DNA of 25,978 nucleotides. It comes from a virus. Lineage: Duplodnaviria; Caudoviricetes. Location of the stretch: positions 1-25,978 of the IMG/VR virus record IMGVR_UViG_3300017909_001925; one strand, given 5' to 3'. The position numbers were made by a program, and so were the translations under genes. Below, one piece after another: positions 1,550-17,196 of the stretch (its first letter is position 1; each line of letters starts with the position of its first letter). Below the pieces are notes generated by a model, which saw only the letters and a list, made by a program, of their open reading frames with translations, was not told the DNA's origin and did not search any database.

Positions 1550-1839
1550 TGTCAGATTTATTCGAAAAGAATAATAGAAGAAGAAACCAAGAGGGTAAGT
1601 TCAAGAAGGACTTATGGTGGACTCCTTGGAATGAAGCATGGAGTTACAAAATGAGTGATGACCTTAAAGATATGTTAGAGCGCACAGCTTGGACATTTAT
1701 TGAGGCGTTCATTGGCGCTTTGACAGTTGCACCTTTAGTAGGTGTAGAGGCTGAAACACTACAACTTGCAGCATTAGCAGGTGGTGGTGCAGCATTAGCT
1801 GTTATAAAGACATACGCTAAAAAACAAATTACTAAGTAA
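1549..1839 (+). CDS. Holin, r1t-like, with a charged N-terminal extension
   Basis: DMLERTAWTFIEAFIGAL...LAALAGGGAALAVIKTYA resembles r1t/actinophage holins. Two TM segments, directly after the lysin. Confidence 0.7.
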   Translation: MSDLFEKNNRRRNQEGKFKKDLWWTPWNEAWSYKMSDDLKDMLERTAWTFIEAFIGALTVAPLVGVEAETLQLAALAGGGAALAVIKTYAKKQITK

Positions 1840-1896
1840 ATACCTTAGTTGTCGTACATCTAGTGTAAAATAGGTGTTGACACATAAGGAGGTATT

Positions 1897-3078
1897 GTGC
1901 CTAAGAAGAAACCAATTCCTGCAGAAAATAGTAATAATTTTTTTAAAGCAGGTTGGAAACCTACTATGGATTTCGACCATACCACTGGTACAGGTGAGAT
2001 AACACATGTAGGAACAGACCCCAACTACGCATCTAAAACAGATGAGATATTAAAAGAGTGGGGATTTGACCCTAAATTGTATGAAATAGATGGAATCCTT
2101 AAGGTTTCTTCTTGGAACACACAATTAAAAGGTGGCATCGTTGAAACTTTCTTTGCATTTAAGGGAAGTGTACGCAGAAAATCTGCAAACAGAGATAAAT
2201 ATTATCAGTCATTGTTTAAACAAGCAGCAAAGAAGCCACCATTAAAGGACCATGGACTATTCAAGGGTGACACAGCCTTCTTCTTTTTTCTTTCAGATTG
2301 GCAACTCGGCAAGGATGATTATGGAGTTGAGAATACAATAAAAAGATTTGATGTTGCATTACAAGATGGTGTGCAACTACTTAAGAATCACAGAAAAACT
2401 GGGTTTAAAATAGATGAGATTTACTTAATAGGAATGGGTGACCTCACAGAAAACTGTACAAAATTCTTTTACGACAGCCAACCACACAATGTTTCTCTCA
2501 ACCTCTTGGAACAATATAGCCTTGCTAGAGCTATGATATTTAAAGCAGTAGAGACATTTTTACCTTATGCAGATAAAATTATTTTGTCAGGTGTGCCAGG
2601 AAACCATGGCGAAATGACTAGAAGTTCTAAAGGTCAGGTTCTTACAAGTCGCTTAGACAACTCAGATACAATGCATTTACAGATAATGGATGAAATATTC
2701 CAGGCAAATCCTGAAAGATATAAAAAAGTAAAGGTAATTATTCCTGAAGGATACCACTTAACATTAGATGTCAAGGGTCAAACTATGGCATTTACTCATG
2801 GTCACATGACAAATGGGTCAGGTAACGCAGAAAATAAAATAGAACAATGGTGGAAAGGTCAGATGTATGGATGGTTACCAGTAGGTCAGGCTTCTATACT
2901 AGTAACTGCTCACTATCACCATTTTCGTGCTAAAACTCAAGGAGACAGGCATTGGTTTCAATGCCCATCTCTTGATAAAAGTATTGATTTCACACAGAGA
3001 ACTGGGTTATGGTCGCATCCTGGTGTATTAACATTACTTGTTAATGACCGAGGACCAAGCTATCCAGTCATTGTTTAA
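1897..3078 (+). CDS. Calcineurin-like metallophosphoesterase (Mre11/SbcD-superfamily nuclease or phosphoesterase)
   Basis: Motifs SDWQ, MGDL, PGNHG, THGH, AHYHH. GTG start with AAGGAGG SD. Confidence 0.85.
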   Translation: MPKKKPIPAENSNNFFKAGWKPTMDFDHTTGTGEITHVGTDPNYASKTDEILKEWGFDPKLYEIDGILKVSSWNTQLKGGIVETFFAFKGSVRRKSANRDKYYQSLFKQAAKKPPLKDHGLFKGDTAFFFFLSDWQLGKDDYGVENTIKRFDVALQDGVQLLKNHRKTGFKIDEIYLIGMGDLTENCTKFFYDSQPHNVSLNLLEQYSLARAMIFKAVETFLPYADKIILSGVPGNHGEMTRSSKGQVLTSRLDNSDTMHLQIMDEIFQANPERYKKVKVIIPEGYHLTLDVKGQTMAFTHGHMTNGSGNAENKIEQWWKGQMYGWLPVGQASILVTAHYHHFRAKTQGDRHWFQCPSLDKSIDFTQRTGLWSHPGVLTLLVNDRGPSYPVIV

Positions 3079-3548
3079 ACAGAGGGCAAAACCTTATATA
3101 ATTTAGGCTTTCCATCAACATCCTTCTCAGGGTAGTGTCCTTCTTCTGTTCTTGGGTCTATCCATAATTCTGATATTTTCTCAGCACTAAACCACTTTGG
3201 TTCTGAATTTGGATGCTTGAAATAAAACAAACCAACTTTAACTTTGTCATATCTTCTAGCTCTGTACTGCATCTCCATCAGCTTGTGATAGTCTGATTCT
3301 TTTAATTTAAGTGTCCCTTTTACCTCAACTAAATAGATAAATCCATTCTTTACAACTGCGTAATCAGGTATGAGTAATACCTTTGTAACATACCAAAACA
3401 AATCAAGTTTGTTCTCTTTAGGGTCTGTTCCAATCTTTAACCAGTCCTTAAACTCAACAAGGTTCGCAGCTTTTAAATAGTTCTGCATAGCCTCATCAGC
3501 CATATCAGGAACTGATTGTCTATCATCATAGCTATCTGTATATTTCAA
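3075..3548 (-). CDS. PD-(D/E)XK nuclease-family protein (resolvase or endonuclease-like)
   Basis: IPDYAVVKNGFIYLVEVKG fits the PD...ExK catalytic signature. Confidence 0.7.
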   Translation of the reverse strand: MKYTDSYDDRQSVPDMADEAMQNYLKAANLVEFKDWLKIGTDPKENKLDLFWYVTKVLLIPDYAVVKNGFIYLVEVKGTLKLKESDYHKLMEMQYRARRYDKVKVGLFYFKHPNSEPKWFSAEKISELWIDPRTEEGHYPEKDVDGKPKLYKVLPSV

Positions 3549-3856
3549 AATATATCTCCTTGTTCGTATCTTTTTCTTTCTTCAGGAGTGGTAATGATTG
3601 CGTGACATCCTTTTTGGTCAACAGAGAAAGGGGTATCTCCTACTTGTTTAAACAGGAAGGCACACCTTTCATTACCATCCGAGTCCAAATAAACATCTCT
3701 TACATCTTTTTTAGTGCAAGGTTTGTTTCCTTCGACAACTTTACATTTTCTATCTAATGGTGGTTTCTTACTAAAGTCATAATCAGGATAGATTTTTTGT
3801 AATTTTTCTATCAGTTTATTGATATTGTAAGAACCACCAGCAGGTTCTAAAGCCAT
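3545..3856 (-). CDS. Hypothetical protein with 4 Cys
   Basis: 103-aa ORF overlapping both neighbours in the operon. Confidence 0.7.
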   Translation of the reverse strand: MALEPAGGSYNINKLIEKLQKIYPDYDFSKKPPLDRKCKVVEGNKPCTKKDVRDVYLDSDGNERCAFLFKQVGDTPFSVDQKGCHAIITTPEERKRYEQGDIF

Positions 3857-4713
3857 TCTTTCGGAACTAGCTTTTCAGAGTTGCTACTATTTATGTAACC
3901 TCCCCAGCCACATCCATTGTTTTGTCCAAAATTACTACAAGCAAAGTCAGGAATACCTTTAAACTTTTCATCTTGTGCTTTCTTAGCTCTATTGTCCTCA
4001 ATCCAGTCAGGTGAATTACAAGAAGGGCAGTTCTTAGTAATATCTTTTATATCACCAAATATCTCTTCGACTGCTTGTCTTGATTCCTTCATTTCTTGAG
4101 GCTCATTTTGTAACTCAAAGAACGCATCCATATAAGTATCAAAATCTTCATCAGTCCAAGTTGCTAAATCCTTGTTATCGACTGCTTTCCAAGCTGCGTT
4201 TTTATATGTCTCTCTAAGCGAAGCATCTTTTTCGTGAAACTCAGTAGCCTCTTTTAATTTTTGTTGCCACTCATGTGAGGCTTGATTTTCTTTTGCTTTA
4301 GATGGTGATTTTTTTGGAGGTGATTGAACTGGTGAATCATCAACAAAGAAGTCATCTGTTCCACTCCATAGCTCAACACCTAAACCAAATCTCATACAAG
4401 CTCTTTTGAATGCATCTGATTCAGCAAGTTTCATACACTCACCTTTGGTTGCTCTTTGTAATGCACTGTTCTCTACATCACCAGCACCTTGAAATGTTCC
4501 AAGTCCTTCCACTTGTATAGTTCCAATGCCACCAATTACTAATCCATCAATAATCGTTGGCTCAAACTTCCATGAGTATTTAACCTTACAATCTCTAAGT
4601 CTTTCAACATAGACTGCATGATTAACAAATTTCCCAAACTTACCTTTGGGTGGGTCTTGCACAACTTCTTTAGGGAATGGCGCAAGTAATTGTTCCCTTA
4701 CCTTTTCTTCCAT
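3847..4713 (-). CDS. Sak/Rad52-like single-strand annealing protein with C-terminal Zn-ribbon
   Basis: LLAPFP...FVNHAVYVERL...G-x-G...KLAESDAFKRACMRFGLGVELW is a Rad52/Sak signature. C-terminal CPSC...PDFAC...CGWG. Confidence 0.8.
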   Translation of the reverse strand: MEEKVREQLLAPFPKEVVQDPPKGKFGKFVNHAVYVERLRDCKVKYSWKFEPTIIDGLVIGGIGTIQVEGLGTFQGAGDVENSALQRATKGECMKLAESDAFKRACMRFGLGVELWSGTDDFFVDDSPVQSPPKKSPSKAKENQASHEWQQKLKEATEFHEKDASLRETYKNAAWKAVDNKDLATWTDEDFDTYMDAFFELQNEPQEMKESRQAVEEIFGDIKDITKNCPSCNSPDWIEDNRAKKAQDEKFKGIPDFACSNFGQNNGCGWGGYINSSNSEKLVPKEWL

Positions 4714-4716
4714 GTG

Positions 4717-4908
4717 TTACCTACTTTCTATTATTTTGTATACTCTTTGTCTGCTCAACTCAAGTGCATCACTAATTTCTTTGACTGAAATGCCATTGTT
4801 TAAACAAGCAAGAATAGTATTTAGTCTTACTGTTTTAAGTCTGTCTATATCACTGTTTGCTCTTGCAAGTTGCGAATTAATTAATTTGAGTTCGTTCAAA
4901 CTGCTCAT
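4717..4908 (-). CDS. Small helix-turn-helix DNA-binding protein
   Basis: GISVKEISDALELSRQRVYKII is a typical HTH, preceded by a short coiled-coil-like helix. Confidence 0.8.
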   Translation of the reverse strand: MSSLNELKLINSQLARANSDIDRLKTVRLNTILACLNNGISVKEISDALELSRQRVYKIIESR

Positions 4909-5014
4909 CTTTCTCAGCTCTCCATTCTCTATACATCTCTACAAGTCCCTCTACTAATACATACATTAGTATTCCAAACATAAACATTATGATTAGTCCC
5001 TGTACGCTAAACAT
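4877..5014 (-). CDS. 45-aa single-TM protein (MFSVQGLIIMFMFGILMYVLVEG...)
   Basis: Hand-translated. SD AAGGAGG upstream; N-terminal TM and charged tail. Confidence 0.65.
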   Translation of the reverse strand: MFSVQGLIIMFMFGILMYVLVEGLVEMYREWRAEKDEQFERTQIN

Positions 5015-5174
5015 TTTCCTCCTTTATTTCTAAAACTTTATGTCCTGATATTTGGTCAATGTAACCTTTCCAAAAGTTAATTGCCCAGTCAACATTTCTA
5101 AATGAGTATGAATCTTTTTGTGTAAATTCAACTCTGATATTTAGAATATGCTTATTGCTCTTCGGCTGTGGCAT
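5007..5174 (-). CDS. 55-aa hypothetical protein (MPQPKSNKHILNIRVEF...)
   Basis: Hand-translated. AAAGGAAG before the ATG; fills the gap and overlaps both neighbours. Confidence 0.6.
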   Translation of the reverse strand: MPQPKSNKHILNIRVEFTQKDSYSFRNVDWAINFWKGYIDQISGHKVLEIKEENV

Positions 5175-5382
5175 CTTCCTTTATTCTTTCTTCGTTAGCT
5201 TGTTGCATATTAAAGTTATAATCTACAACAAACTGTTCGATTAGACTATCTACCTTTACAATATTGTGTCTGTTAAGTTTAATACTTGTCTGTGTCACTT
5301 CTTGTCCACCACAAGCATTGGCTAAATTAATTGCCCACTTCTTCAAGTGTTTTGTTTCACTAAATATATTTGGCTTACTCAT
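5152..5382 (-). CDS. Hypothetical protein
   Basis: 76-aa ORF in a contiguous - strand operon. Confidence 0.65.
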   Translation of the reverse strand: MSKPNIFSETKHLKKWAINLANACGGQEVTQTSIKLNRHNIVKVDSLIEQFVVDYNFNMQQANEERIKEDATAEEQ

Positions 5383-5602
5383 CTGCTATCACAAAATTAA
5401 CATCAACATTGTCATCGATGATTTGTACCTTTGTATTGTATCCAGCACCACTTACTGTAAAGTGTTGCAAGATTGTAGCTTGTGATAAGTCGCTAGTCTG
5501 TTTCTTGACTGCACCATCTATATTGTTTGCCATTGTCCATAAGACACCTTTGGCTGTATTATTTTTGTAGTCGTACTTTCTACAAATGGATATTATATCC
5601 AT
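5375..5602 (-). CDS. Hypothetical protein
   Basis: 75-aa ORF with SD AAGGGAGG. Confidence 0.7.
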   Translation of the reverse strand: MDIISICRKYDYKNNTAKGVLWTMANNIDGAVKKQTSDLSQATILQHFTVSGAGYNTKVQIIDDNVDVNFVIADE

Positions 5603-5625
5603 GATTCCTCCCTTATATCTATTGG

Positions 5626-5787
5626 TTACTTGTCTGCTGTTTGTAGCTCTTCAATCTTTACGATGAAGTAGTTACTTCCAGTATCCTTAATCTCTGTTCT
5701 CTTTGCTGAGGCTTCCTCATAGGTATCAAACTCCCATGTCATAACACTCGCATCGAAAATCGAAAGACTCGTTACTAAGTATTTCAT
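5626..5787 (-). CDS. 53-aa hypothetical protein (MKYLVTSLSIFDASVMTWEFDTYEEA...), probably leaderless
   Basis: Hand-translated. ATG lies 7 nt after a TAACAT -10 hexamer. Confidence 0.6.
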   Translation of the reverse strand: MKYLVTSLSIFDASVMTWEFDTYEEASAKRTEIKDTGSNYFIVKIEELQTADK

Positions 5788-5793
5788 ACCACC

Positions 5794-5821
5794 ATGTTAA
5801 TAGCTATTTAATATTAAACAA
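5794..5821 (-). promoter_or_regulatory. Putative promoter TTGTTT-N16-TAACAT
   Basis: AT-rich intergenic gap; spacing is consistent with a leaderless start at 5787. Confidence 0.4.
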
Positions 5822-5865
5822 GTAATTACATAAGTTTTTACTGCTTGTTTAAACAACTACCTCTT

Positions 5866-5988
5866 TCATCCATATCTTTTCTTGCCACCATTTGCTACAC
5901 CATCACCAGTAGGTCGTTTCAAACCACGATACTTTCCACCTTTTTTAGATTTCATAGCTCTTCTCATAGCTCTATTCACTTTTACCAT
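5866..5988 (-). CDS. 40-aa basic micro-protein (MVKVNRAMRRAMKSKKGGKYRG...)
   Basis: Hand-translated. NRxxRR-type basic motif common in small phage proteins. Confidence 0.55.
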   Translation of the reverse strand: MVKVNRAMRRAMKSKKGGKYRGLKRPTGDGVANGGKKRYG

Positions 5989-6121
5989 CCCAATAGGATT
6001 TCTTACCTGTCATTATGTCCTCTCTGTAAAACTTCTTATATTCATATCTAAGAATAATTTTACGATTGAACAACTTGAACAAGGTAAAGTGTCTGTGTCC
6101 TGATTCTGTCGTTCTAGGCAT
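5972..6121 (-). CDS. 49-aa hypothetical protein (MPRTTESGHRHFTLFKLFNRKII...)
   Basis: Hand-translated. Overlaps both neighbours; GAGGGTG upstream. Confidence 0.55.
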   Translation of the reverse strand: MPRTTESGHRHFTLFKLFNRKIILRYEYKKFYREDIMTGKKSYWDGKSE

Positions 6122-6311
6122 AGTCATCACCCTCATCTCTCTTCTTAAATAGTCTGTCCATCAACTGTGATTTCATAAACTCTTCTGTTTCTTTTTCTTG
6201 TCGTTGTCTGAGTCGTTCTCTCTCAACTCTGTATTCACTGTATGTGATAAAGAGTAAAGAGATTGTTAAACCCATAATAAGTCCCAATACAAATAACATT
6301 ATGTCATCCAT
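6114..6311 (-). CDS. Single-TM protein with charged coiled-coil tail
   Basis: SD AGGAGG; N-terminal hydrophobic helix. Confidence 0.75.
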   Translation of the reverse strand: MDDIMLFVLGLIMGLTISLLFITYSEYRVERERLRQRQEKETEEFMKSQLMDRLFKKRDEGDDYA

Positions 6312-6322
6312 AGTTTTACCTC

Positions 6323-6538
6323 CTATACTTCGTTGTCTGTGCTACCTACTTCATTTAATTTTTTAAGCAAAAATATAAAAGCTCTACTTAAAGTTTTAAA
6401 TGAGTGTATTCTGTCATAAGCTATGCTCATGCCATCTTCTTCCCATTCAAGTAATTTTTCTTGTGCCTCTTCAATAGTTTTATAACGATTGAAACTAACA
6501 CTATTACCCTCATAAGATTCAAGTATATGTATCATCAT
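6323..6538 (-). CDS. Hypothetical protein (start revised to ATG 6538)
   Basis: AGAAAGGAAC precedes ATG 6538. The longer track start lies inside a TGTTTAAACA site. Confidence 0.65.
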   Translation of the reverse strand: MMIHILESYEGNSVSFNRYKTIEEAQEKLLEWEEDGMSIAYDRIHSFKTLSRAFIFLLKKLNEVGSTDNEV

Positions 6539-6565
6539 GTTCCTTTCTATCTGTTTAAACAAGCA

Positions 6566-6797
6566 CCAAGATATGAAGTAGTCAACTTAAGTTAAGTAGC
6601 TAATCGTAATCAGTTTCCTGATTGGATAACATTGTTATATTGAGTCGAAGTTTGAGGGATGTATCAACATGGTATTGTTGTAAGTTGTTTCTAGCTAGTC
6701 ATCTCTTACTCCTCACAAGTGAGAAAGCATGTGCAAACTCCTCATATCGAATATAACTTTAGTCATCTAACCTGTCATTGACTACCTCATACCTTGG
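6566..6797 (-). ncRNA. Putative structured ncRNA domain A (~230 nt)
   Basis: 20-bp closing stem 6566-6585/6778-6797 whose two mismatches are G-U on the - strand. AAUCAG-GAAA-CUGAUU tetraloop hairpin at 6608-6623. Further internal stems; no ORF in the track. Confidence 0.65.
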
Positions 6798-7043
6798 TAG
6801 CTCTCGGTTAAGTAGTACTATTGTGTTTCAAGTTCCCTTTGCAAGGGCTAATACCTAGAATTATTTTAATATACTAAGAACTAGCGTAACCATTCTAGGA
6901 TAGTCGGTGAGTACACACTCATGCTGTTCTTAGCCTCTCATCAACATCACTCAGTTACTTCAAGTTGTAACCTCGCTAAGAAAACCTCATAATGCTTGAA
7001 CATTAATCGTTTTCCCATAGTTATCTACTTAACCGACAACTAC
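6798..7043 (-). ncRNA. Putative structured ncRNA domain B (~245 nt)
   Basis: Perfect 12-bp IR 6804-6815/7025-7036 with extensions. GCAA-loop hairpin 6835-6847; 8-bp stems 6854-6861/6892-6899 and 6927-6934/6975-6982. Confidence 0.65.
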
Positions 7044-7167
7044 CTGTTTAAACAAGGGATGGTGCGAGGCATCACACCATCCAATGTTTTCCTGCTGGGA
7101 TATTATGGTCTTGCCATAATTACCACCTCACTTTCTACTTAAGTCATACAAGTAGTAGTGAGTTAAA

Positions 7168-7437
7168 TTATGTTAGTGCGTATTTGCTTGTTCTACTGAA
7201 CTTTGCACCTTCACACTCTTGGGATAGTACAAAAGAATCCCATTCCTTTGTAGCTTTATCCCCATCAACACTTCCGATTTCTTTTGCCTTAGCCATAGCT
7301 TTGGTCAAGCCATCGAATGCGCTTGGATGAATAAGAACTTTTCTGTCCTCATCACCATCAAGGTTTACCTCAAGCCATACACTGTATTCATTTACTGTGT
7401 AGGTTGCACCTTTTTTAATTTCATCTAGTTGTGGCAT
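7168..7437 (-). CDS. Hypothetical early protein
   Basis: 89 aa; SD AAGGAGGCA. Confidence 0.75.
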   Translation of the reverse strand: MPQLDEIKKGATYTVNEYSVWLEVNLDGDEDRKVLIHPSAFDGLTKAMAKAKEIGSVDGDKATKEWDSFVLSQECEGAKFSRTSKYALT

Positions 7438-7517
7438 ACTGCCTCCTTACTATTCTAGTAATTTACCTTGTTGTAATTACCATAATGCTACCTGTTTAAA
7501 CAAGTAGCACTAGCTAA

Positions 7518-7766
7518 CTACAATTTGTCTATTTTAATATCAGATGGGGTTGCACCATCACTATCAGTTACCAATACAATATCTTTGCCATCATAATCAA
7601 TTATGTTTATGTGACTCTCATGCTTTCTTATGGTTTCTAATACATCTGATAAAGCATCATCTGTAGCGTTTGTATCATGCGCAACAAGTAAAGTAATTTT
7701 TTCGACTTTACAATATCTTGCATAATCTCTATGATTTAACACTAGCTCTCTAGTATCTTTGCTCAT
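7518..7766 (-). CDS. Hypothetical early protein
   Basis: 82 aa; SD GAGGAGGCA. Confidence 0.75.
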   Translation of the reverse strand: MSKDTRELVLNHRDYARYCKVEKITLLVAHDTNATDDALSDVLETIRKHESHINIIDYDGKDIVLVTDSDGATPSDIKIDKL

Positions 7767-7885
7767 TTCTTTGCCTCCTCAATTAGTTTTTTCCAATAGT
7801 CATCTGATTCAGTGTCAATGAACCAGTCACCATTTTGAACGAACTCTTCGTATTCTTCTTCGTTTTCGAATACTCCATAAGCCAT
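7763..7885 (-). CDS. 40-aa acidic micro-protein (MAYGVFENEEEYEEFVQNGDWFIDTESDDYWKKLIEEAKK)
   Basis: Hand-translated. SD AAGGAGGCA at 7888-7896; ATGA overlap with the next gene. Confidence 0.7.
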   Translation of the reverse strand: MAYGVFENEEEYEEFVQNGDWFIDTESDDYWKKLIEEAKK

Positions 7886-7908
7886 TCTGCCTCCTTCTGT
7901 TTGCTATA

Positions 7909-8258
7909 TAGATAGCTTGTAACACACTGGCATAACTTTAATCTTGACTGCAAAGCAGACATAACCAATGTGCTACAAGCTACCTACTGTAAGTGAACTA
8001 CACTGGAACTAATCTGTTTATAGTAGTTTTTTCTATCTAGCTAACATTTCTGCACTAGACTTCCAACCTTTGTAACTTACATAGATAGCTTGAAAGATAC
8101 TAGGAACGAGGTCTGCAATTAGTTGTTTCGTTCTTATCCAGTTATGAACTGGCTACCTTGCTAATATCCTTCAAGCTACCATCACCGATACAACAAGGGC
8201 AATATATTATACTCAGTGATAGATAGCTTAGAAGTGGCTGTTTAAACAACCACTTCTA
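7909..8258 (-). ncRNA. Five back-to-back stem-closed RNA domains
   Basis: IR-bounded units at 7909-7986, 7988-8081, 8086-8178, 8181-8220 and 8229-8258. Stem mismatches are mostly G-U on the - strand; GCA-GAAA-UGU loop in the second unit. Confidence 0.65.
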
Positions 8259-8263
8259 TAATT

Positions 8264-8692
8264 TTAGAATGGAACATAGTCCTCATCCTCACTGAAAACA
8301 TTATCTGCCTCATCTTTTACTTCTTTGGGTGGGTTGAACATGTCATCCCATTCATCCTTAGTAAGTAAAGTCATAGCCTCTGATATTGTTATGAAGTGTT
8401 TGTCCTTTGGGTTTCCACAATCTGCATCATCGAAACTTGAACCAAAGTTTTGCTTTGCTGTAACACTGGCGTTTTTCATGCGAATATCTCTGAAGAACAA
8501 TGTCTTGTCCTCAATGTCATCAACATGCAACACCTCAATATTGTCACTGTATTTAGTTTCGATATTGATTCCGATATGCGCTTGAAGTTTCTTGAACTTA
8601 ACAAGAACATCATCTTGTGATTCAGCATCCACAATATGCACCTCTGTAAAGTGAGAGAATAAGCACTTTGCTAATACTATGTATTTTTCCAT
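8264..8692 (-). CDS. Hypothetical early protein with acidic C-terminal tail (...EDEDYVPF)
   Basis: 142 aa; SD AAGGAGGCA. Confidence 0.8.
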   Translation of the reverse strand: MEKYIVLAKCLFSHFTEVHIVDAESQDDVLVKFKKLQAHIGINIETKYSDNIEVLHVDDIEDKTLFFRDIRMKNASVTAKQNFGSSFDDADCGNPKDKHFITISEAMTLLTKDEWDDMFNPPKEVKDEADNVFSEDEDYVPF

Positions 8693-8763
8693 TATGCCTC
8701 CTTAAATAGTGATACTATAAGTATCTTTGACTACTCATTGTTTAAACAAGTAGTCTAAGATAA

Positions 8764-9435
8764 TTACTGATAATCTGCTCGTAACCTCTCAGGAAGCTCA
8801 ACAACTGTCGAACTACCACAAGCTGGGCATCTGAAGTTATCACCAACTTTTTTGTATTGGGCGTATGATACTCTAACTATCAATCCCCATCCTTGCGCAA
8901 CACTTCTGTCGCTAGAACCTATACAAGCCTCTGCACCAGTACATCGCACTGCAACTGAGGTTGAACCAGCACCTTCTGATTCCTTCATCTTGGCGTGAGG
9001 TAAATAACCTAACTCTTTGATAAAGTCTTGAATCATAAGGGTGAATCGTGGTCCAGCAACTGTCGCTGTTGGTTTGCCTTCAGCACCTAAGTAATTTTTG
9101 ATTACTCTTGAGAATTTTGGTCCATGCTTTGCATCAGATGGTAAGACTGCGTGTGTAACTTCGTGGGCTACAACTTGGGCTGTCTCGATACATTCTGCTA
9201 GGTTACTTGCACCTAATGTAGGTTTGATAAAGATTTCTCTGAATCCACCTTGTGAAGAATTCTCGTAGTGACATACTCCAATAGCATTACCATTACCTTT
9301 TGGCATAAATCCAATCGATAATCTGATTTGCTCTCTCGGAACAACTGGCACGAACTCAAGCGAAATTTTATCGTAAATAAAATCTGCTATTTTGTTTAAC
9401 CAATCTTCTCGGTTACCTTCGAATATTTTATCCAT
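8764..9435 (-). CDS. SprT-like zinc metallopeptidase with C-terminal Zn-binding motif
   Basis: VAHEVTH (HExxH) followed by HGPKF, preceded by AIGVC; C-terminal CxxxxxC...CPAC. SD AGGAGGCA. Confidence 0.75.
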   Translation of the reverse strand: MDKIFEGNREDWLNKIADFIYDKISLEFVPVVPREQIRLSIGFMPKGNGNAIGVCHYENSSQGGFREIFIKPTLGASNLAECIETAQVVAHEVTHAVLPSDAKHGPKFSRVIKNYLGAEGKPTATVAGPRFTLMIQDFIKELGYLPHAKMKESEGAGSTSVAVRCTGAEACIGSSDRSVAQGWGLIVRVSYAQYKKVGDNFRCPACGSSTVVELPERLRADYQ

Positions 9436-9465
9436 TTTTTGCCTCCTAATTATTGTGTTGTGATA

Positions 9466-9494
9466 ACCATACTATAGTTAACAACTGTTGTCAA
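9466..9494 (-). promoter_or_regulatory. Sigma70/SigA-type early promoter TTGACA-N17-TATGGT
   Basis: Consensus -35 at 9494-9489 and -10 at 9471-9466. Shares TAGTTGACAA and TAGTATRGTTA context with the 10726-10753 promoter. Confidence 0.75.
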
Positions 9495-9546
9495 CTATTT
9501 ATAATTACCTATCTACTCACTGTTTAAACAATGAGTAGTTAGCTAA

Positions 9547-9834
9547 TTAGTTATGATTTATGTATGAGGGTGAAACTCTATATTTTCTGCCTTCGAATTC
9601 ACCAGTCAATACAACTCCAATAGTTTTTGTATTTACTTTTTCTACGATTGCTGGATATAGTTTTCCACTTTTGAAAGTAACAACAACTTGGTCACCTTTT
9701 TTATAATTGGTGATTTCTGCTTTTGTATTTTCATCCCATTTCTTTTTCATAGCTTTCCATACTTCTCTTAAATCATCGTTATTATCAATTAATTCAATCG
9801 ATGCTTTCGCTATGATTACATTATCATTTTCCAT
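9547..9834 (-). CDS. Small protein with SH3/KOW-like beta-barrel
   Basis: KGDQVVVTF...YPAIVEKVNTKTIGV...KYRVSPSYI pattern; SD AGGAGGCA. Confidence 0.7.
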   Translation of the reverse strand: MENDNVIIAKASIELIDNNDDLREVWKAMKKKWDENTKAEITNYKKGDQVVVTFKSGKLYPAIVEKVNTKTIGVVLTGEFEGRKYRVSPSYINHN

Positions 9835-9906
9835 TTTTGCCTCCTATAATCTTGGTAATTATTTAATTACCTTTGAGGATGCTTGTTTAAACATCCTCTA
9901 AGCTAA

Positions 9907-10194
9907 TTAAATGTTTTTGCAATAATCCCAGTCTGATTCAATCTTTTGTTGTTTTCTTACTGAAGTTATTACTCTGTTTAGAGTGTGAAAGTTAGAATCT
10001 TCCAATGCTAATTGACAAATATCTAAAATATCTGCGCCATCCCATTCGAAATTATTAGAAATAAAATCGGCTAGTAACCTTTTCTTTTTCTCTTTAAATT
10101 CTTTTTCCTCTTTCTCTAAAACTAATTCTTTCTCAGTCTTAGGAATTTGAAATTCCTCATTAAGTTGATTTACAACTTCGCTAAGTTTTGCCAT
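9907..10194 (-). CDS. First early gene, hypothetical (start revised to ATG 10194, MAKLSEVV...)
   Basis: SD GAGGAGGCA at 10201-10209 supports the internal Met. Confidence 0.75.
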   Translation of the reverse strand: MAKLSEVVNQLNEEFQIPKTEKELVLEKEEKEFKEKKKRLLADFISNNFEWDGADILDICQLALEDSNFHTLNRVITSVRKQQKIESDWDYCKNI

Positions 10195-10220
10195 TTTTTT
10201 TGCCTCCTCTTTTTTATAAA

Positions 10221-10316
10221 TAGCTTGATGCATACAATGGGGCTAATGTTATAGGTTTACCACACCTAAACTTGATTGGTAGCTAATTCCAACCAGCGCT
10301 TATATACATCAAGCTA
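10221..10316 (-). ncRNA. Stem-closed multibranch RNA domain
   Basis: 14-bp closing stem 10221-10234/10303-10316 (one G-U on the - strand) enclosing two hairpins. Same GGUAGCUUG/CAAGCUA ends as the 7909 and 8086 units. Confidence 0.6.
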
Positions 10317-10324
10317 CCTACTAA

Positions 10325-10720
10325 AAGGGGGCTAAATGAATTATGCGCACCTCTCTCAATGTGACTCTTGCGTAAACTTGGCTCAATATCGTGGAACATT
10401 TTAGATGTTAGGTTGATACTATCGCTGTAACTTTTTACCTATTTTCTTGAGTTTCGTTAGCTTGAATTTTTCGCTGGTGAGGTTGTTTTATGTGTTACCA
10501 CCAATCTCATTTCTGAGAGAGTGTAAGCCCTTATGTTTTGGGGGCGTTTCTTTGTCCACTCTTGAAAATCATTTTGGTTTTGCCATTTCGGTCTAATTTC
10601 CCCTTGTGATTTCGTACTTGACTCGCTCACTTTCTTGAGGCTATTTTTTGAGAGTCTCAAGACCTCTCTATTGTGTTTTGAATCTCTTGAGAATCTTTGT
10701 CTTTCTCAGTCTTGATTCAG
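10325..10720 (-). ncRNA. Long structured 5' leader or ncRNA of the early transcript
   Basis: About 400 nt after the promoter without an SD-supported ORF. UCUCA-GAAA-UGAGA hairpin at 10505-10518; seven UCAAG pentamers. Confidence 0.5.
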
Positions 10721-10725
10721 TATTA

Positions 10726-10753
10726 ACTATACTACGATTATTTTATTTGTCAA
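10726..10753 (-). promoter_or_regulatory. Major early promoter TTGACA-N16-TATAGT
   Basis: Consensus -35 at 10753-10748, -10 at 10731-10726, AT-rich upstream region. Confidence 0.7.
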
Positions 10754-11420
10754 CTACTATTGAAAATAATTTAAAAAAAATATTCAATGTTTATGGGGGT
10801 TTTTCAGGGGGTCAAAAAAAATATTTATTTACTAGAAAAATCTTGTCAATTTTGGGGGGTGAAGATGGTTGGAATAATTTTAGCTGGGGGTTAGTCAACT
10901 TAACCTTTCTTTGTTTCTGTTTAATTTACTAGTATATGTTTTCTAGAAGTTGTTATTTTATTACCAAAGTTTACCAATATTAGGTTATTTCTATGACATA
11001 CAAGATGTTGTGTATAGGTGTAGATAAACAATATATAGTAGGGTAGGGGTTAAATGTGACACGCCACTTATGTATATGTGTGTCCTCTAAATATATGCTG
11101 TTAACTCTAAGTTAGCCCACCTGTTTATATCTTATTTATTGTTACTGGATTAAGTATTTTCACAAGTAAAGGACTATGTGAATTATATTTCACAATGTCT
11201 TAAGTTTGTGATATTAGTACAACTTACCCTGTGTCATCCCTCCCAACCGATAACAAATCTGTTTATGACTTATTTAAATATTATGAAGTAATAGCCTTTA
11301 ACGCTAGTTACCATGGTCAGGCAAGTCCACTTATTGAAGTTTTTATCTGATAGATTCTTTCTAAGTGCCTGGAGTCTATCGTGTTTGTTTTTCTACTATA
11401 CCATAAAAATATTTTATGTG

Positions 11421-11470
11421 GGGATTTTCAAGTGACTTATTAAGGAGGCAAAATAAGTATTAAAAATCCC
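11421..11470. other. Orphan hairpin with AAGGAGGCAA/TTGCCTCCTT loop
   Basis: Stems 11421-11428/11463-11470 and 11435-11441/11452-11458; loop 11442-11451. Confidence 0.6.
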
Positions 11471-11485
11471 TATATAAGTCTAGTA

Positions 11486-11497
11486 TGTGCTATAGTG
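11486..11497 (+). promoter_or_regulatory. Extended -10 promoter TGTGCTATAGTG
   Basis: TGnTATAGT; 11/12 identical to the element at 11835-11846. Confidence 0.5.
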
Positions 11498-11809
11498 GAT
11501 TAGATGGTTTTCATAACCCTTTATTCATTAAAGACATGATTGCCCTTTCTATTGTGTATGCGTGAGGGTGTGCCAGGCAACTGATGCACCCAATCGTATT
11601 ATAAAAATAACCTCAGACAAAAAAATTTTTTTTTACGCCACAATATTTATTTATATATATACTGGTATTACTTAGGGTGGTCCTAAGTATCGTATAGGGG
11701 TATACGATTAGAAAAAAGAAAGAATGCTTATCATATAGGACATTTGTGATTCTGTAAGATGTAAGTGTATTTCGTTTTTTTTCATAAACAGTTTGGACAC
11801 TGTATACAA

Positions 11810-11837
11810 ACAGAACTCCACTTCGGTGGAGTTTTGT
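11810..11837 (+). terminator. Intrinsic-terminator-like hairpin with C(UUCG)G tetraloop
   Basis: ACAGAACTCCAC-TTCG-GTGGAGTTTTGT; possibly bidirectional. Confidence 0.6.
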
Positions 11838-11846
11838 GTTATAGTG
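11835..11846 (+). promoter_or_regulatory. Extended -10 promoter TGTGTTATAGTG for the late/packaging operon
   Basis: TGnTATAGT; ATG 11853 is 8 nt downstream, consistent with a leaderless start. Confidence 0.55.
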
Positions 11847-11852
11847 ATGATT

Positions 11853-11918
11853 ATGAAAATGTATAAAAACAAAAAGAAAAAATCTAAAGGCAAAGGCAAA
11901 AAGAAACTAGGTTACTAA
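11853..11918 (+). CDS. 21-aa Lys-rich micro-protein (MKMYKNKKKKSKGKGKKKLGY)
   Basis: Hand-translated. TAATG coupling to the next ORF. Confidence 0.6.
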   Translation: MKMYKNKKKKSKGKGKKKLGY

Positions 11919-12043
11919 TGCCTTATAAAGATTATTCAGCAAAACAAAAGAAACTAGCTGCTGTAGCACCACCTTTTAAAAAGATTACTGCTGCAGATTT
12001 TAAAAAGCTAAGAGATGGCAAACGCAGACCAAAAAAAACATAA
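11918..12043 (+). CDS. 41-aa basic micro-protein (MPYKDYSAKQKKLAAVAPPFKKITAADFKKLR...)
   Basis: Hand-translated. TAATG overlaps at both ends. Confidence 0.7.
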   Translation: MPYKDYSAKQKKLAAVAPPFKKITAADFKKLRDGKRRPKKT

Positions 12044-12123
12044 TGGATGCTTTTATAGTATTTCTTATGTTTGTTCTTGTAAATGCGTGGGCATGGATTT
12101 TGATTAAGAAAGATAAAATATAA
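12043..12123 (+). CDS. 26-aa single-TM micro-protein (MDAFIVFLMFVLVNAWAWILIKKDKI)
   Basis: Hand-translated. TAATG overlaps at both ends. Confidence 0.65.
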   Translation: MDAFIVFLMFVLVNAWAWILIKKDKI

Positions 12124-12383
12124 TGGCAACATATCAAGGTAAAACAGTCACGCTTAATAAGCCTTCTAGGATAACTAAAGGTGAACCTGGTTATGGTAGA
12201 AAAAAATCTAAAGTCTATGTAAAAAATAAAAGTGGCAAAGTCATCAAAGTAATGTTTGGAGACCCTAACATGGAAATTAGAAAGGATAATCCTGAAGCAA
12301 GAAAATCTTTTAGAGCTAGACATAAATGCGATACAGCAACAGACAAGACTACACCTAGGTATTGGTCTTGCAAAGCGTGGTAA
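12123..12383 (+). CDS. Basic phage protein (DUF6321-like)
   Basis: FGDPNM...RKSFRARHKC...YWSCKAW motif recalled from marine phage proteins. Confidence 0.75.
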   Translation: MATYQGKTVTLNKPSRITKGEPGYGRKKSKVYVKNKSGKVIKVMFGDPNMEIRKDNPEARKSFRARHKCDTATDKTTPRYWSCKAW

Positions 12384-12386
12384 ACT

Positions 12387-12560
12387 ATGAAAATAAAAGG
12401 CGTAGATGTTTCTAAATTAACAAAGAGACAACAAGATGCGATGAAGAAACACTCAAAGCATCACACAAAAAAACACATGCAGTACATGTACAACTCTATG
12501 GTAAGAGGTAACTCTTTCAGTAAAGCACATGTCAATGCACAGAAGAATGTAGGTAGATAA
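12387..12560 (+). CDS. 57-aa basic His-rich protein (MKIKGVDVSKLTKRQQDAMKKHSKHHTKKHM...)
   Basis: Hand-translated. TAATG overlap with the next gene. Confidence 0.7.
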   Translation: MKIKGVDVSKLTKRQQDAMKKHSKHHTKKHMQYMYNSMVRGNSFSKAHVNAQKNVGR

Positions 12561-12778
12561 TGGCTATACCAGCATCGGCACAAAAATCATTAAGAGAAAA
12601 AGCTAAAAAATCAAAATACACTTATGGACAACTTGCACAAGTGTACAGAAGAGGACAAGGTGCTTATGTATCTTCAGGTTCTCGTAATGTATCTATGGCA
12701 GCTTGGGCTATGGGTAGAGTAAACAGTTTTATAAGAGGTGGACACTCACAAGATAACGACATAAAGAAGAAAAAATAA
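12560..12778 (+). CDS. Basic phage protein (DUF5824-like)
   Basis: L-x-x-VYRRG-x-GAY...W-A-x-GRVNSFI motif, family assignment from memory. Confidence 0.7.
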   Translation: MAIPASAQKSLREKAKKSKYTYGQLAQVYRRGQGAYVSSGSRNVSMAAWAMGRVNSFIRGGHSQDNDIKKKK

Positions 12779-12897
12779 TGGCACAGGTTAGTTGGATGTG
12801 GGGTGGCAAAAGACATTATGGAACTCTTATTAGAGAAACTAAAACACATAAGTTTGCTAGGACCAAAAATGGGAAAATTAAAAAAATCAAAAAATGA
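12778..12897 (+). CDS. 39-aa basic beta-rich micro-protein (MAQVSWMWGGKRHYGTLIRETKTHKFARTKNGKIKKIKK)
   Basis: Hand-translated. TAATG coupling. Confidence 0.65.
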   Translation: MAQVSWMWGGKRHYGTLIRETKTHKFARTKNGKIKKIKK

Positions 12898-12949
12898 TAA
12901 ATCTAAAAAAGAGTATGCAGGTAATCCTAATTGGGCAGGAGATGATTGA
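12869..12949 (+). CDS. 26-aa micro-protein (MGKLKKSKNDKSKKEYAGNPNWAGDD)
   Basis: Hand-translated. Ends in a TGATG overlap with the next ORF; start uncertain. Confidence 0.45.
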   Translation: MGKLKKSKNDKSKKEYAGNPNWAGDD

Positions 12950-13143
12950 TGAGTAGAAGAACACAACCTTATAGATATGGTGTACCTGCAAAGTATTTAT
13001 CAGGTATGTCTGATGCAGAAGCAAAGAAGAGAGCAGCCGAAATAAAAAGAACACAGAAAGCGTATAGAGCAGGTAAAAAAGTAAATATTGCTGCTGTATC
13101 TAAATCAAGAGCAAAGAGTGGAAGAAGAAACAAGATTACTTGA
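12949..13143 (+). CDS. 64-aa basic protein (start revised to ATG 12949)
   Basis: MSRRTQPYRYGVPAKYLSG...; TGATG coupling. Confidence 0.7.
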   Translation: MSRRTQPYRYGVPAKYLSGMSDAEAKKRAAEIKRTQKAYRAGKKVNIAAVSKSRAKSGRRNKIT

Positions 13144-13241
13144 AAGTTGGATGCCCTCGTTGTGGGGAACATTTAGTTTACAATAATGACAAGCAGAAAA
13201 TGGCTTGTTTAAACAAGGAGTGTGAACACTACAGAAAATGA
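13140..13241 (+). CDS. 33-aa Zn-finger micro-protein (MKVGCPRCGEHLVYNNDKQKMACLNKECEHYRK)
   Basis: Hand-translated. TTGA overlap upstream and ATGA overlap with terminase; CxxC...CxxxxC. Confidence 0.65.
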   Translation: MKVGCPRCGEHLVYNNDKQKMACLNKECEHYRK

Positions 13242-15154
13242 GTAAAGCAAAAGTTTGTTTCGCAAAGGGATGTCATAATTTACTAAAACCTCCTAAAAGA
13301 AAATATTGTTCAACTAAATGTTCTAAATCTACACATAATGCAATAGCTTATGCTAAGAAGAATGGTGCAGTGTATGAACCTGAACACGATGGTAAACCAG
13401 TAGCAGAACCTAATGTGCAAAAAAGAAGAGGTGAAGTTTATCAAAAATTAAAAGAACAAGACCTTGGACCAAAAATATTAAAAGGTGATTTAAGTAAACA
13501 AGATGCAGCAAAATTATTAGATTGTACAAAAGCTGCACTTAGTTATGCATACGCTGCTTGGGTAGAAGATATTGAAACAGAAGAATCTGCAAGAAACTGG
13601 AAACTAAAAGTAGAAGCAGAAAGGTCACTAAGAGATTTTAAAAATTTTAGAGATAGATACTTTGAAACAGAACAAGGTATTCCTTACGAAACACCTGAGT
13701 TTCACATAAGGTGGATTGAGTCTATTTTAAATGCTATAGACAATGGTGGACAGCAGATGATACTATCTCCACCACGACATGGCAAGACAGACTTACTAAT
13801 TCATTTTGCAGTATGGTTGATTATCAAAAATCCAAATGTTAGGATTTTATGGGTAGGAGGTAATGAAGAGATTGCCAAGAACGCAGTATCTTCTGTAATT
13901 GACCAACTAGATAATAATGAGAAACTAATTGAAGAACTCTGTCCTCCTGGAAAAACTTTTAAGCCAACATCTCGAACTGGCAAAGCGTGGTCGCAGAATG
14001 GGTTTACTGTTGGCACTCGTACTGTTACTGGGATTAAGTCACCTACCATGGTTGGTATCGGTCGTGGAGGTAAAATCTTATCAAGAGATTGTGACATCAT
14101 TATCGCAGATGACTTGGAAGACCACTCATCAACTATGCAACCAGCTTCAAGAGAAAACACAAGAAACTGGTGGACCACAACACTGTCAAGTCGTAAAGAA
14201 GAACACACAGCCATAATCGTTATTGGTTCTAGGCAACACTATGATGACTTGTATCATCACTTGTTAGACAATGAATCCTGGTCAACCTTAGTAGAAGAAG
14301 CACACGATACTAGCTGTAATAAACCTGATTGGTCAGATGATGAGCATGTTGAATGTATGTTGTGGTCAGGTAAAAGAACCTACAAGTGGCTAATGGATAG
14401 AAAGAGAGCTGCAGAAACTACAGGTGGTAGAGCTATCTTTGAAATGGTTTATCTAAATGTTGCAATACCTGATGGATTATCTTTGTTTAGCAGAGAAGAA
14501 ATAGAAGCATGTAGAGACCAAAAAAGAGATATTGGACATGTGCCACAAGGTGTAAGACTTATTGCAGGATTAGACCCTGCATCTACTGGATATCAGGCAG
14601 CAGTTTTGTGGGGATATGATGTGGAAACACAAAAACTATATCTTATAGATTTGAATAACAATCTAGGTGGAGGTATCCCACAAGCATTAGAATTAATAAA
14701 AGATTGGTGGAATAAATACAACTTGTCACATTGGGTTATTGAAGAAAATGGTTTTCAAAAAGCAATAAGACAGGATGAATCAATACGCAAGTTTGCATCA
14801 AGTCATGGTATATTTTTAGAGGGACATGAAACAAGGTCACAAAAGTTTGACCCAATATTTGGTGTTACAGCTATGAGACCTATGTTCCAAGAAGAAAATA
14901 TTAATTTACCATATCTTGGATATGAAGCCCAAGAAAAGGTAAACTTATATACAAGTCAGTTAGTGTATTTCAGTTCTGCAAGAAACAGAAGTAAAACTGT
15001 AGGCACTAAGACTGACATAGTTATGGCTAGTTGGTTTCCAATGAGAGCCATAAGAAGAATGCAAAAAGAAAGATTTGCAGAGTTAGGATATGATTATAGT
15101 CCTAGCTTTACTGGGTATGAACCTAGTAGTATGGATGTAGATAATTGGAGTTAA
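13238..15154 (+). CDS. terL: Terminase large subunit with N-terminal Zn-finger/HTH extension
   Basis: Walker A PPRHGKT, Walker B IIIADDLE, coupling motif VIGSR, nuclease GLDPA...IEENGFQ...DIVMA. Confidence 0.92.
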   Translation: MSKAKVCFAKGCHNLLKPPKRKYCSTKCSKSTHNAIAYAKKNGAVYEPEHDGKPVAEPNVQKRRGEVYQKLKEQDLGPKILKGDLSKQDAAKLLDCTKAALSYAYAAWVEDIETEESARNWKLKVEAERSLRDFKNFRDRYFETEQGIPYETPEFHIRWIESILNAIDNGGQQMILSPPRHGKTDLLIHFAVWLIIKNPNVRILWVGGNEEIAKNAVSSVIDQLDNNEKLIEELCPPGKTFKPTSRTGKAWSQNGFTVGTRTVTGIKSPTMVGIGRGGKILSRDCDIIIADDLEDHSSTMQPASRENTRNWWTTTLSSRKEEHTAIIVIGSRQHYDDLYHHLLDNESWSTLVEEAHDTSCNKPDWSDDEHVECMLWSGKRTYKWLMDRKRAAETTGGRAIFEMVYLNVAIPDGLSLFSREEIEACRDQKRDIGHVPQGVRLIAGLDPASTGYQAAVLWGYDVETQKLYLIDLNNNLGGGIPQALELIKDWWNKYNLSHWVIEENGFQKAIRQDESIRKFASSHGIFLEGHETRSQKFDPIFGVTAMRPMFQEENINLPYLGYEAQEKVNLYTSQLVYFSSARNRSKTVGTKTDIVMASWFPMRAIRRMQKERFAELGYDYSPSFTGYEPSSMDVDNWS

Positions 15155-16912: not shown

Positions 16913-17196
16913 TGTCTGAATTTGACCCAATGCAAGAAACAAACGAAAAGTTTTATGACATTATAAATCAGGATGATTGGAACTTTGATTTTGGAAAAGA
17001 GTTTCAAATACAAGATGCAGAAATGGAAGAGTTTACTCCTCCTGTTATGCAGTATTGGTTGCCAACACCAATAGCTGGTGTACACCTAAGAATAGATTTT
17101 GTTATAGAAGATGGCAGACCTGAAAACGATGAAGTTTTAAATTTTTTAAATAACTTAAGTAGATTCTTAGAAGAGAACGAAGGTGAACAATGGTAA
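16912..17196 (+). CDS. Acidic hypothetical protein
   Basis: 94 aa; SD AAGGAGG; TAATG coupling. Confidence 0.7.
   Translation: MSEFDPMQETNEKFYDIINQDDWNFDFGKEFQIQDAEMEEFTPPVMQYWLPTPIAGVHLRIDFVIEDGRPENDEVLNFLNNLSRFLEENEGEQW

What the first reader, a model, noticed from the sequence alone, without database searches (positions are those of the whole stretch)
6566..10720. Early transcript carries an array of structured RNA modules with shared closing stems (candidate processed small-RNA array)
Seen: about 1.4 kb of the early arm (6566-7165, 7909-8258, 10221-10720) has no credible ORFs and consists largely of abutting IR-bounded units. On the - strand several units open and close with near-identical sequence: AGGUAGCUUGAUG...CAUCAAGCUAU (10221-10316), UGGUAGCUUGAAG...UUUCAAGCUAUC (8086-8178), AGGUAGCUUGUAG...UUACAAGCUAUC (7909-7986), AGGUAGUUGUCGG...CCGAGAGCUAC (domain B) and AGGUAGUCAA...UUGACUACUU (domain A), while interiors appear unrelated. 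Stem mismatches are mostly A-C on + and so G-U on -, and GNRA loops read correctly on -, matching the transcription direction. Established: T7 and SP82 early mRNAs are cut by RNase III at long intergenic stems. Inference: a conserved processing stem releases several distinct RNA cargoes early in infection, possibly decoys or anti-defence RNAs.
Basis: partly seen in the sequence, partly recalled or inferred. Interest (0 to 1): 0.85.

Follow-up and report, generated by a model that had tools for sequence, protein, structure and literature searches.

The report
Swappable structured-RNA cassettes in marine phages
An uncultured marine phage carries, between its early genes, RNA modules whose constant 20-base-pair stem encloses one of well over a hundred different small folded sequences that related phages gain, lose and swap; the stem is likely cut by the host's RNase III, which would release a library of small RNAs whose targets are untested.

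Summary
Observation largely confirmed. Units A-E fold on the transcribed (-) strand (z -5.4 to -7.1) and are five of the six long-range 18-bp stems in the window. C, D and E belong to a large family: 358 distinct units with 147 cargo families in marine phage contigs, all non-coding and co-oriented with early genes. The stem and several cargos covary, some as pseudoknots. Near-identical phages lack E, lack C, or hold another cargo inside B's arms, so these are exchangeable cassettes. A and B share only the 7-bp stem core. The 400-nt leader is not an array of IR units but holds a covarying pseudoknot. The stem fits E. coli RNase III box spacing, with one antideterminant; no RNase III, integrase or reverse transcriptase was found in 18 carrier records. 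Cleavage, expression as discrete RNAs and anti-defence function are not shown; RNA-run contigs were inconclusive. The host is probably a low-GC marine actinobacterium. No Rfam match, and no paper in my searches. This scan reported what appears to be the same family on other DNA before.

The parts
10726..10753 (-). sigma-70-like early promoter at the head of the early arm (predicted)
   Evidence: 11 of 12 consensus match; -35 hexamer kept in L441 and L001
10320..10720 (-). A-rich non-coding leader F; not IR-bounded
   Evidence: z -1.0; 92% identical in L001 with its only long frame broken; partial matches to leaders in L092 and L419
10633..10668 (-). H-type pseudoknot in the leader (5-bp and 5-7-bp stems)
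   Evidence: kept through changes on both sides in L441 and L419; 1 of 300 shuffles reaches 10 Watson-Crick pairs
10216..10321 (-). unit E: canonical frame plus about 60-nt cargo, just upstream of the first gene's RBS
   Evidence: z -5.4; same cargo in L385; replaced by a short plain hairpin in L441, whose flanks are 98.3% and 99.6% identical
8081..8183 (-). unit D: canonical frame plus pseudoknotted cargo with an inner 5-bp hairpin
   Evidence: z -5.9; 25-sequence alignment 95.4% paired, 13 pairs with two-sided change; cargo found in 32 viral loci
7990..8078 (-). D-C spacer, itself a mobile structured cargo framed by the 3' arm before it and the 5' arm after it
   Evidence: homologues in L309, L310, L312, L337, L368, L381 in other contexts
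7908..7987 (-). unit C: canonical frame plus 34-nt cargo
   Evidence: z -7.1; cargo family of 6 distinct units; absent with the spacer from L001, where D's 3' arm is followed by the sequence that follows C's 3' arm in the window
6796..7044 (-). unit B: variant frame plus about 205-nt multi-branch cargo
   Evidence: z -6.3; same arms hold an unrelated roughly 245-nt cargo in L001, L009, L012/L140, L268, L315
6565..6798 (-). unit A: variant frame plus about 186-nt multi-branch cargo
   Evidence: z -6.1; 98-99% identical in L009 and L010; variant in RNA run X6 keeps pairing at 6 of 6 changed paired positions
7471..9912 (-). five intergenic hairpins (about 9861-9912, 9502-9549, 8715-8767, 8226-8258, 7471-7521) with the palindrome at the apex; four carry the frame's UAR/YUA core in the inverted orientation
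   Evidence: same build in L002 and L003
1413..13215 (.). 14 copies of the 10-bp palindrome TGTTTAAACA (1413, 2213, 3072, 3645, 4797, 5846, 6552, 7045, 7493, 8239, 8739, 9521, 9884, 13206); it abuts A and B and also lies inside ORFs
   Evidence: 0.14-0.32 expected; kept inside ORFs of a 77%-identical relative; absent from 8 other carrier genomes, so not required by the frame
3847..4713 (-). Rad52/Erf-like single-strand annealing protein, candidate catalyst of cassette exchange (inferred)
   Evidence: Pfam PF04098 E 6e-5, phrog_3290 E 1e-8; same family in 4 of the 7 candidate proteins tested from this position in other carriers

Best explanation
The units are exchangeable RNA cassettes in the early transcript of a marine phage: a constant stem of about 22 base pairs encloses a variable folded cargo, and host RNase III likely cuts the stem, which would release each cargo as a stable small RNA that likely acts by its shape on host or rival-phage proteins. 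Shown: the strand-specific stem, its covariation, the cargo families and their gain, loss and replacement at the arms. Inferred: (1) transcription from the promoter at 10726-10753; (2) a staggered cut 11-12 pairs above the stem base, giving inner RNAs of 80 (E), 77 (D) and 54 (C) nt closed by an 8-11-bp stem, and leaving spacers and mRNAs with complementary ends; (3) exchange by recombination between repeated arms, probably through the phage annealing protein; (4) action in trans as protein ligands under diversifying selection. My odds by step: RNA structure 0.95, cassette exchange 0.9, RNase III cut 0.6, trans-acting cargo 0.55, anti-defence in particular 0.25.
For: Folding and strand bias. 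358 distinct units in 313 loci, 147 cargo families, Chao1 about 295. Tests free of my pairing filter: 165 of 207 pattern hits pair at 7 or 8 of the 8 unconstrained positions 11-18; 90 of 92 hits to the 5' arm alone have a 3' arm. G-U dominates positions 3, 13 and 18 (318, 266, 306 of 358). 121 of 128 units are co-oriented with the nearest ORF and 0 of 128 overlap one. Cargo D: 95.4% of cells paired, 90 two-sided changes vs 30.9 shuffled, three pair types at one pseudoknot position with no mismatch; 19 upstream and 20 downstream flank clusters among 34 rows. Across 26 cargo families 40 compensated pairs vs 16.3 in column shuffles; crossing stems of 9 or more pairs in 35 of 102 cargos vs 19.8. 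Precise exchange in close relatives. Box spacing: PMC5141509 (passages) puts the E. coli distal box UU/AG at 10-11 and the proximal box CWUW at 2-5 from the cut centre, which matches A1G2 and C7U8U9 of the stem; one set of boxes suffices (PMC1540722, abstract). The frame also occurs in an unrelated HK97-type phage with WhiB, and no RNase III is encoded in 18 carrier records, pointing to a host factor.
Against: No read-level ends. G10-C sits at proximal-box position 4, where G-C suppresses cleavage by the E. coli enzyme (PMC1540722, section 17). 8 of 32 D copies have lost the lower half of the 5' arm. Sequence-blind variants keep only the basal RUARY core, which lies mostly between the boxes, and vary at positions 8-10; E. 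coli sites have no strong consensus (PMC8708148, passage), so the box match is weak evidence. Positions 1-10 were fixed by my search patterns. Cargos cut out of their stems fold only weakly (mean z -0.68, antisense -0.79, n=90). 11 of 26 families show no compensated pair. The 3-bp second pseudoknot stem of D never varies in the 25-sequence alignment (one compensated change). RNA-run contig X3 runs across B's 5' arm. No target was found for any cargo.
Confidence: 0.45

Rival explanations
1. The modules act in cis: the stems process or protect the early mRNA as in T7, and the cargos tune stability or translation of the next gene.
For: 101 of 358 units have an RBS and ATG within 60 nt downstream, median 23 nt, vs 31 in the control direction; E and C sit just before an RBS; RNase III maturation of T7 mRNA is established (PMC8708148, passage).
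Against: Cargo D lies in 20 different downstream contexts; units stand in tandem with no gene between them; a 98-99% identical phage uses a plain hairpin in place of E; hundreds of cargo types are not needed for end protection.
Confidence: 0.22
2. The stem is bound but not cut (an RNase III sponge or a site for another host or phage protein); cargos work while displayed on the intact transcript.
For: G-C at the antideterminant position; the most constant part is the basal core rather than the boxes; the same core closes the palindrome hairpins in the opposite orientation; the stem base AGGU/AUCU equals a predicted Mini-III site with a wobble pair (PMC5141509, passage), so the recognising protein is open.
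Against: Pairing is kept for about 10 more pairs above the core with compensated changes, as a cut duplex would need; host enzyme rules are unknown.
Confidence: 0.13
3. Cargos are antisense regulators or guides that pair with host or rival-phage transcripts.
For: Unpaired stretches are conserved within families; high diversity suits many targets.
Against: No match to the carrier's own genome in 21 units from 10 records; no excess identity or complementarity to E. coli rRNA and five tRNAs; lengths vary from about 25 to 245 nt; covariation points to shape. The real host genome was not available.
Confidence: 0.1
4. The arms are DNA-level recombination sites (attC-like or PeSL-like) or a selfish inverted-repeat element, and the RNA fold is incidental.
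For: Exchange points fall at the arms; the 14-copy palindrome is a DNA-type motif next to A and B.
Against: 0 of 18 carrier records encode a tyrosine integrase or reverse transcriptase; strict co-orientation with transcription; pseudoknot covariation inside cargos; units confined to the early arm.
Confidence: 0.1

Closest known systems
RNase III sites of the T7 early transcript (R1.1 type); SP82 sites recalled, not read
   Same: Long G-U-containing stems between early genes of a phage that encodes no RNase III; box spacing fits.
   Different: R1.1 is a 49-nt stem with no conserved cargo; here one stem sequence is reused around 147 or more unrelated cargos of about 25-245 nt that are exchanged between phages.
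PeSL cassettes of T4-type phages (PMC2839356, abstract)
   Same: Repeated intergenic elements in a variable early region that serve as recombination points for modular shuffling.
   Different: PeSLs are promoter plus terminator and shuffle genes; these frames have no promoter or U-tract of their own and shuffle non-coding folds.
Phage counter-defence RNAs: Racr RNAs and pseudo-ToxI repeats (recalled); viral sgRNAs (bioRxiv 10.64898/2026.06.01.729453, search listing only)
   Same: Small phage RNAs; type III antitoxin RNAs are short A-rich pseudoknots (recalled), as some cargos are.
   Different: Each known case mimics one host RNA; no cargo matched an Rfam family at gathering level and no mimicked host RNA was found.
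CRISPR arrays and pri-miRNA clusters (established knowledge)
   Same: Constant parts flank variable parts in one precursor; RNase III family processing.
   Different: Inverted arms rather than direct repeats, cargo length not fixed, cargos structured and conserved across phages, no cas or other effector gene found.
Correia elements (CREE) of Neisseria (lead from earlier finding e1-9718218; properties recalled)
   Same: Terminal inverted repeats that fold in RNA and are RNase III targets.
   Different: CREE interiors are related and spread genome-wide by transposition; here interiors are unrelated and units lie only in the early arm.

Membership tests
RNase III processing site | duplex of about 11 bp or more on each side of the cut | tested here: met
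   stems of 18-24 bp in 171 of 173 units; 20-27 bp in the window
RNase III processing site | distal and proximal boxes at E. coli spacing | tested here: inconclusive
   AG and CUU match on the basal half but G-C lies at the antideterminant position, the upper half does not match, and these positions were fixed by the search pattern
RNase III processing site | staggered cut with 2-nt 3' overhang in vivo or in vitro | not testable with these tools
   only assembled contigs were available
Mini-III site | WSSW tetranucleotide near a stem end, in a host that has Mini-III | tested here: inconclusive
   AGGU/AUCU at the stem base fits; host unknown; absence of Mini-III from actinobacteria is recalled, not checked
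Any Rfam 15 family | covariance-model match | tested here: not met
   0 matches at E<=1 in the window; 7 sub-threshold matches in 20 related loci
CRISPR-like guide array | direct repeats, fixed-length spacers matching targets, effector gene | tested here: not met
   inverted arms, unit length 60-200 nt or more; no self matches; no effector among the 68 and 66 proteins scanned
Integron attC cassette | tyrosine integrase; one gene per site | tested here: not met
   0 of 18 records with PF00589; tandem units without genes; a host integrase was not testable
Retron msr-msd | a1/a2 inverted repeat with a cognate reverse transcriptase | tested here: not met
   0 of 18 records with PF00078
PeSL | promoter plus terminator hairpin in each repeat | tested here: not met
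   no terminator-like call on C, D or E and strong promoter matches only at 10726-10753 and 9466-9494 on the minus strand
tRNA or anticodon-arm decoy | tRNA fold, or excess of 5-bp stems with 7-nt loops | tested here: not met
   0 tRNA genes in the window and 60 loci; 7-nt loops in 18 of 144 families vs 17.7 shuffled, strict YUNNNR loops 4 vs 1.2 (shuffle maximum 5)
Type III antitoxin mimic | tandem repeats of one pseudoknot that neutralise a cognate toxin | tested here: inconclusive
   pseudoknots present but cargos are not tandem copies and no Rfam match; toxin binding not testable

The most novel reading that the evidence does not exclude
Marine actinophages carry a natural, recombining RNA-aptamer library: hundreds of distinct small folds mounted on one host-processed scaffold, swapped like gene cassettes and released at the start of infection to inhibit host or rival-phage proteins.
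Probability: 0.3. Interest if true: 0.93.

Novelty: categorically new. Interest (0 to 1): 0.76.

Why it matters
Known phage small RNAs are single cases. A shared expression scaffold with at least 147 exchangeable folded cargos would add an RNA layer to phage-host conflict as diverse as the early proteins, in what is probably one of the most abundant marine bacterial groups. It is directly testable: cut sites are predicted to the base, near-identical phages with and without a cassette exist, and the scaffold could serve as a small-RNA expression frame.

Tried and rejected
Rfam: no family. Annotated phage collection: no meaningful DNA match for the window's early arm or a four-unit relative. GTDB scan with the 5' arm: 2 hits, a cyanobacterial contig not followed up and a 3-kb bin contig with small phage-like ORFs; the host was not identified. 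Anticodon-arm decoy idea, prompted by D's 7-nt CAU loop: no general enrichment, and L001's D has another loop. Mimicry of or pairing to rRNA/tRNA, using E. coli as stand-in: nothing. Self-targeting: nothing. Obligate partner protein: the commonest neighbour, an AAA_5 ATPase in 37 loci, is not in the window's early arm. Interlocked pairing of D's 3' arm with C's 5' arm is negligible at equilibrium in the window (P<1e-6). RNA runs: six small-share runs; X6 has a 212-nt contig at 6580-6772 wholly inside A, X5 and the probably-DNA run X1 also cover A, but ends differ and X6 also covers other parts of the relative's genome, so expression of a discrete RNA is not shown. The B-arm scan gave 3 relatives already held and 2 hits that look like chance. 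The first pair count used a misaligned structure and was redone. Literature: searches found no description of this element; the alignment files of the 8,495 viral candidate RNAs in PMC10690425 could not be read, so single cargos or the stem may be listed there; Shi, Tyson and DeLong 2009 (recalled) was not in the library.
Full report
Setting. The window is a partial phage genome (64% complete by CheckV) with terminase at 13238-15154, large virion-type proteins beyond it, and an early arm on the minus strand running from a sigma-70-like promoter at 10726-10753 down to an annealing protein at 3847-4713. No cultured relative was found at DNA level. The host is inferred, not shown: the exonuclease's 855 matches are dominated by phages of Mycobacterium, Propionibacterium and Streptomyces, the best named terminase matches are Streptomyces phages at about 26%, 1 of 38 carrier records has WhiB, and GC is about 35%, like the Actinomarinales phages described in PMC7771536 (33.6-36.5%; passages).

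Observation. Units A (6565-6798), B (6796-7044), C (7908-7987), D (8081-8183) and E (10216-10321) fold on the minus strand with z of -5.4 to -7.1, always better than on plus. Their closing stems hold 14 G-U and no A-C pairs on minus, and a sequence-blind search finds only one other long-range 18-bp stem in the window. The three intervals are non-coding. It does hold an H-type pseudoknot at 10633-10668 that survives changes on both sides in L441 and in the distant L419.

Family. A pattern of the two 10-nt arm ends hit 121 and 120 viral stretches (estimated about 160 and 180) and the 5' arm alone 124 metagenome stretches (about 380). From 387 sequences I extracted 546 units, 358 distinct, requiring 16 of 18 pairs. 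Because that filter and the patterns bias the counts, I ran unfiltered tests: 165 of 207 distinct pattern hits pair at 7-8 of positions 11-18, the other 42 at 1-6 and are taken as chance without individual checks; 90 of 92 5'-arm hits with enough flank have a 3' arm. Positions 11-18 show swapped pairs (for example U-A 299 vs A-U 46, C-G 279 vs U-A 54) and G-U is kept at positions 3, 13 and 18. Units lie on the sense strand (121 of 128) and never in an ORF (0 of 128). Seven of eight other carrier genomes examined share terminase or portal with the window at about 51-58% and carry their units in one region, shown to be the arm of small early genes where loci were mapped; the eighth is an unrelated HK97-type phage with WhiB. 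A and B are variant frames sharing the 7-bp basal core; other variants appear.

Cargo. The 358 units fall into 147 cargo families, 77 of them singletons, Chao1 about 295. Isolated cargos fold only weakly by minimum free energy (mean z -0.68), but crossing stems are enriched (35 of 102 vs 19.8, mononucleotide shuffles) and 15 of 26 families with four or more variants show compensated pairs (40 vs 16.3). A scan with D's cargo alone gave 33 hits: 24 in a full frame, 8 with the upper stem and 3' arm but a decayed lower 5' arm, 1 chance. On 25 sequences (the window and 24 of the 33; duplicates, the chance hit, one insertion variant and three decayed copies left out) the stem, an inner 5-bp hairpin and a pseudoknot give 95.4% paired cells and 13 pairs with two-sided change. 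The unit A variant in RNA run X6 keeps pairing at all six changed paired positions, including one G-C to A-U double change.

Exchange. L441 is 98.3% and 99.6% identical on either side of E yet has a short plain hairpin in its place. L001 lacks C and the D-C spacer, joined at the repeated 3' arm, and holds a different 245-nt cargo inside B's arms; that cargo recurs in B-type arms in L009, L012, L268 and L315. The D-C spacer is a cargo of its own in six other loci. Within the window the three canonical units have different upper stems, so own-arm pairing (-28 to -37 kcal/mol) beats cross-pairing (-16 to -20). No tyrosine integrase, reverse transcriptase or RNase III was found in 18 carrier records, 12 of them at least 90% complete. 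Recombination by the phage annealing protein is my inference.

Mechanism. A 20-bp or longer G-U-bearing stem between early genes suggests host RNase III, as in T7 (PMC8708148, PMC5371410; passages). The E. coli spacing of distal and proximal boxes (PMC5141509) fits A1G2 and C7U8U9, and B. subtilis RNase III has similar preferences (bioRxiv 10.1101/2023.03.12.532304, passages). That register predicts inner RNAs of 80, 77 and 54 nt. Against it: G10-C is a catalytic antideterminant for the E. coli enzyme (PMC1540722), a quarter of D copies lack the lower stem, and the most constant bases are the basal core. The RNA runs hold only contigs and settle nothing. For function, movement of one cargo among about 20 contexts, tandem units without genes, and dispensability in near-identical phages favour action in trans, and covarying pseudoknots favour shape over base-pairing; tests for anticodon mimicry, rRNA mimicry and self-targeting were negative. 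Anti-defence is only one option, since Actinomarinales are reported to lack identifiable CRISPR and toxin-antitoxin systems; host takeover or interference with rival phages is as likely.

Second motif. TGTTTAAACA occurs 14 times, only between 1413 and 13215, at hairpin apices, next to A and B, and inside ORFs where relatives keep it. It is absent from eight other carrier genomes, so it is a lineage-specific, probably DNA-level, site and not part of the frame.

Novelty. No Rfam family and no describing paper in six topical searches; the alignments of PMC10690425 could not be read. Earlier notes of this scan describe what appears to be the same family on other DNA; they are not independent support. 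It works like a T7-type processing stem combined with PeSL-type shuffling, but is a member of neither, and an exchangeable library of folded RNA cargos has no counterpart known to me. Interest 0.76.

Noticed in passing
window 1413-13215: 14 copies of the palindrome TGTTTAAACA, none in 13300-25978; 13 in L010, 7 in L002, 9 in L003; conserved inside ORFs. Candidate binding site of a phage or host protein; the HTH gene at 4717-4908 contains one copy.
   Followed up: partly
window 10633-10668 (-): Covarying H-type pseudoknot with an A-rich loop near the 5' end of the early leader, also in L441, L001 and L419; no Rfam match. The rest of the leader has blocks shared with L092.
   Followed up: partly
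window about 7760-7865 (-): A short ORF between two identical RBS motifs is missing in L001, a second deletion between short repeats.
   Followed up: no
window 8764-9435 (-): SprT-like metalloprotease with a C-terminal zinc finger behind its own promoter-like site (9466-9494).
   Followed up: no
L042:1184-1900 and L058:3929-5413: An AAA_5 (MoxR-like) ATPase (37 loci) and a roughly 494-aa protein (19 loci) are the commonest early genes of carrier phages but are absent from the window's early arm.
   Followed up: no
L091/L092 1233-1613; L099; L158: Cargos nest: the same core fold occurs alone or wrapped in an extra helix inside the frame (families 2 and 4), and L393 carries two cargo stems side by side.
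   Followed up: partly
L136 (GTDB bin contig, 3097 bases): A contig in a proteobacterial bin carries the 5' arm among small phage-like ORFs; probably a misbinned phage piece.
   Followed up: no
L010:12776-13900: Tryptophan-halogenase-like gene in the closest relative's late region.
   Followed up: no
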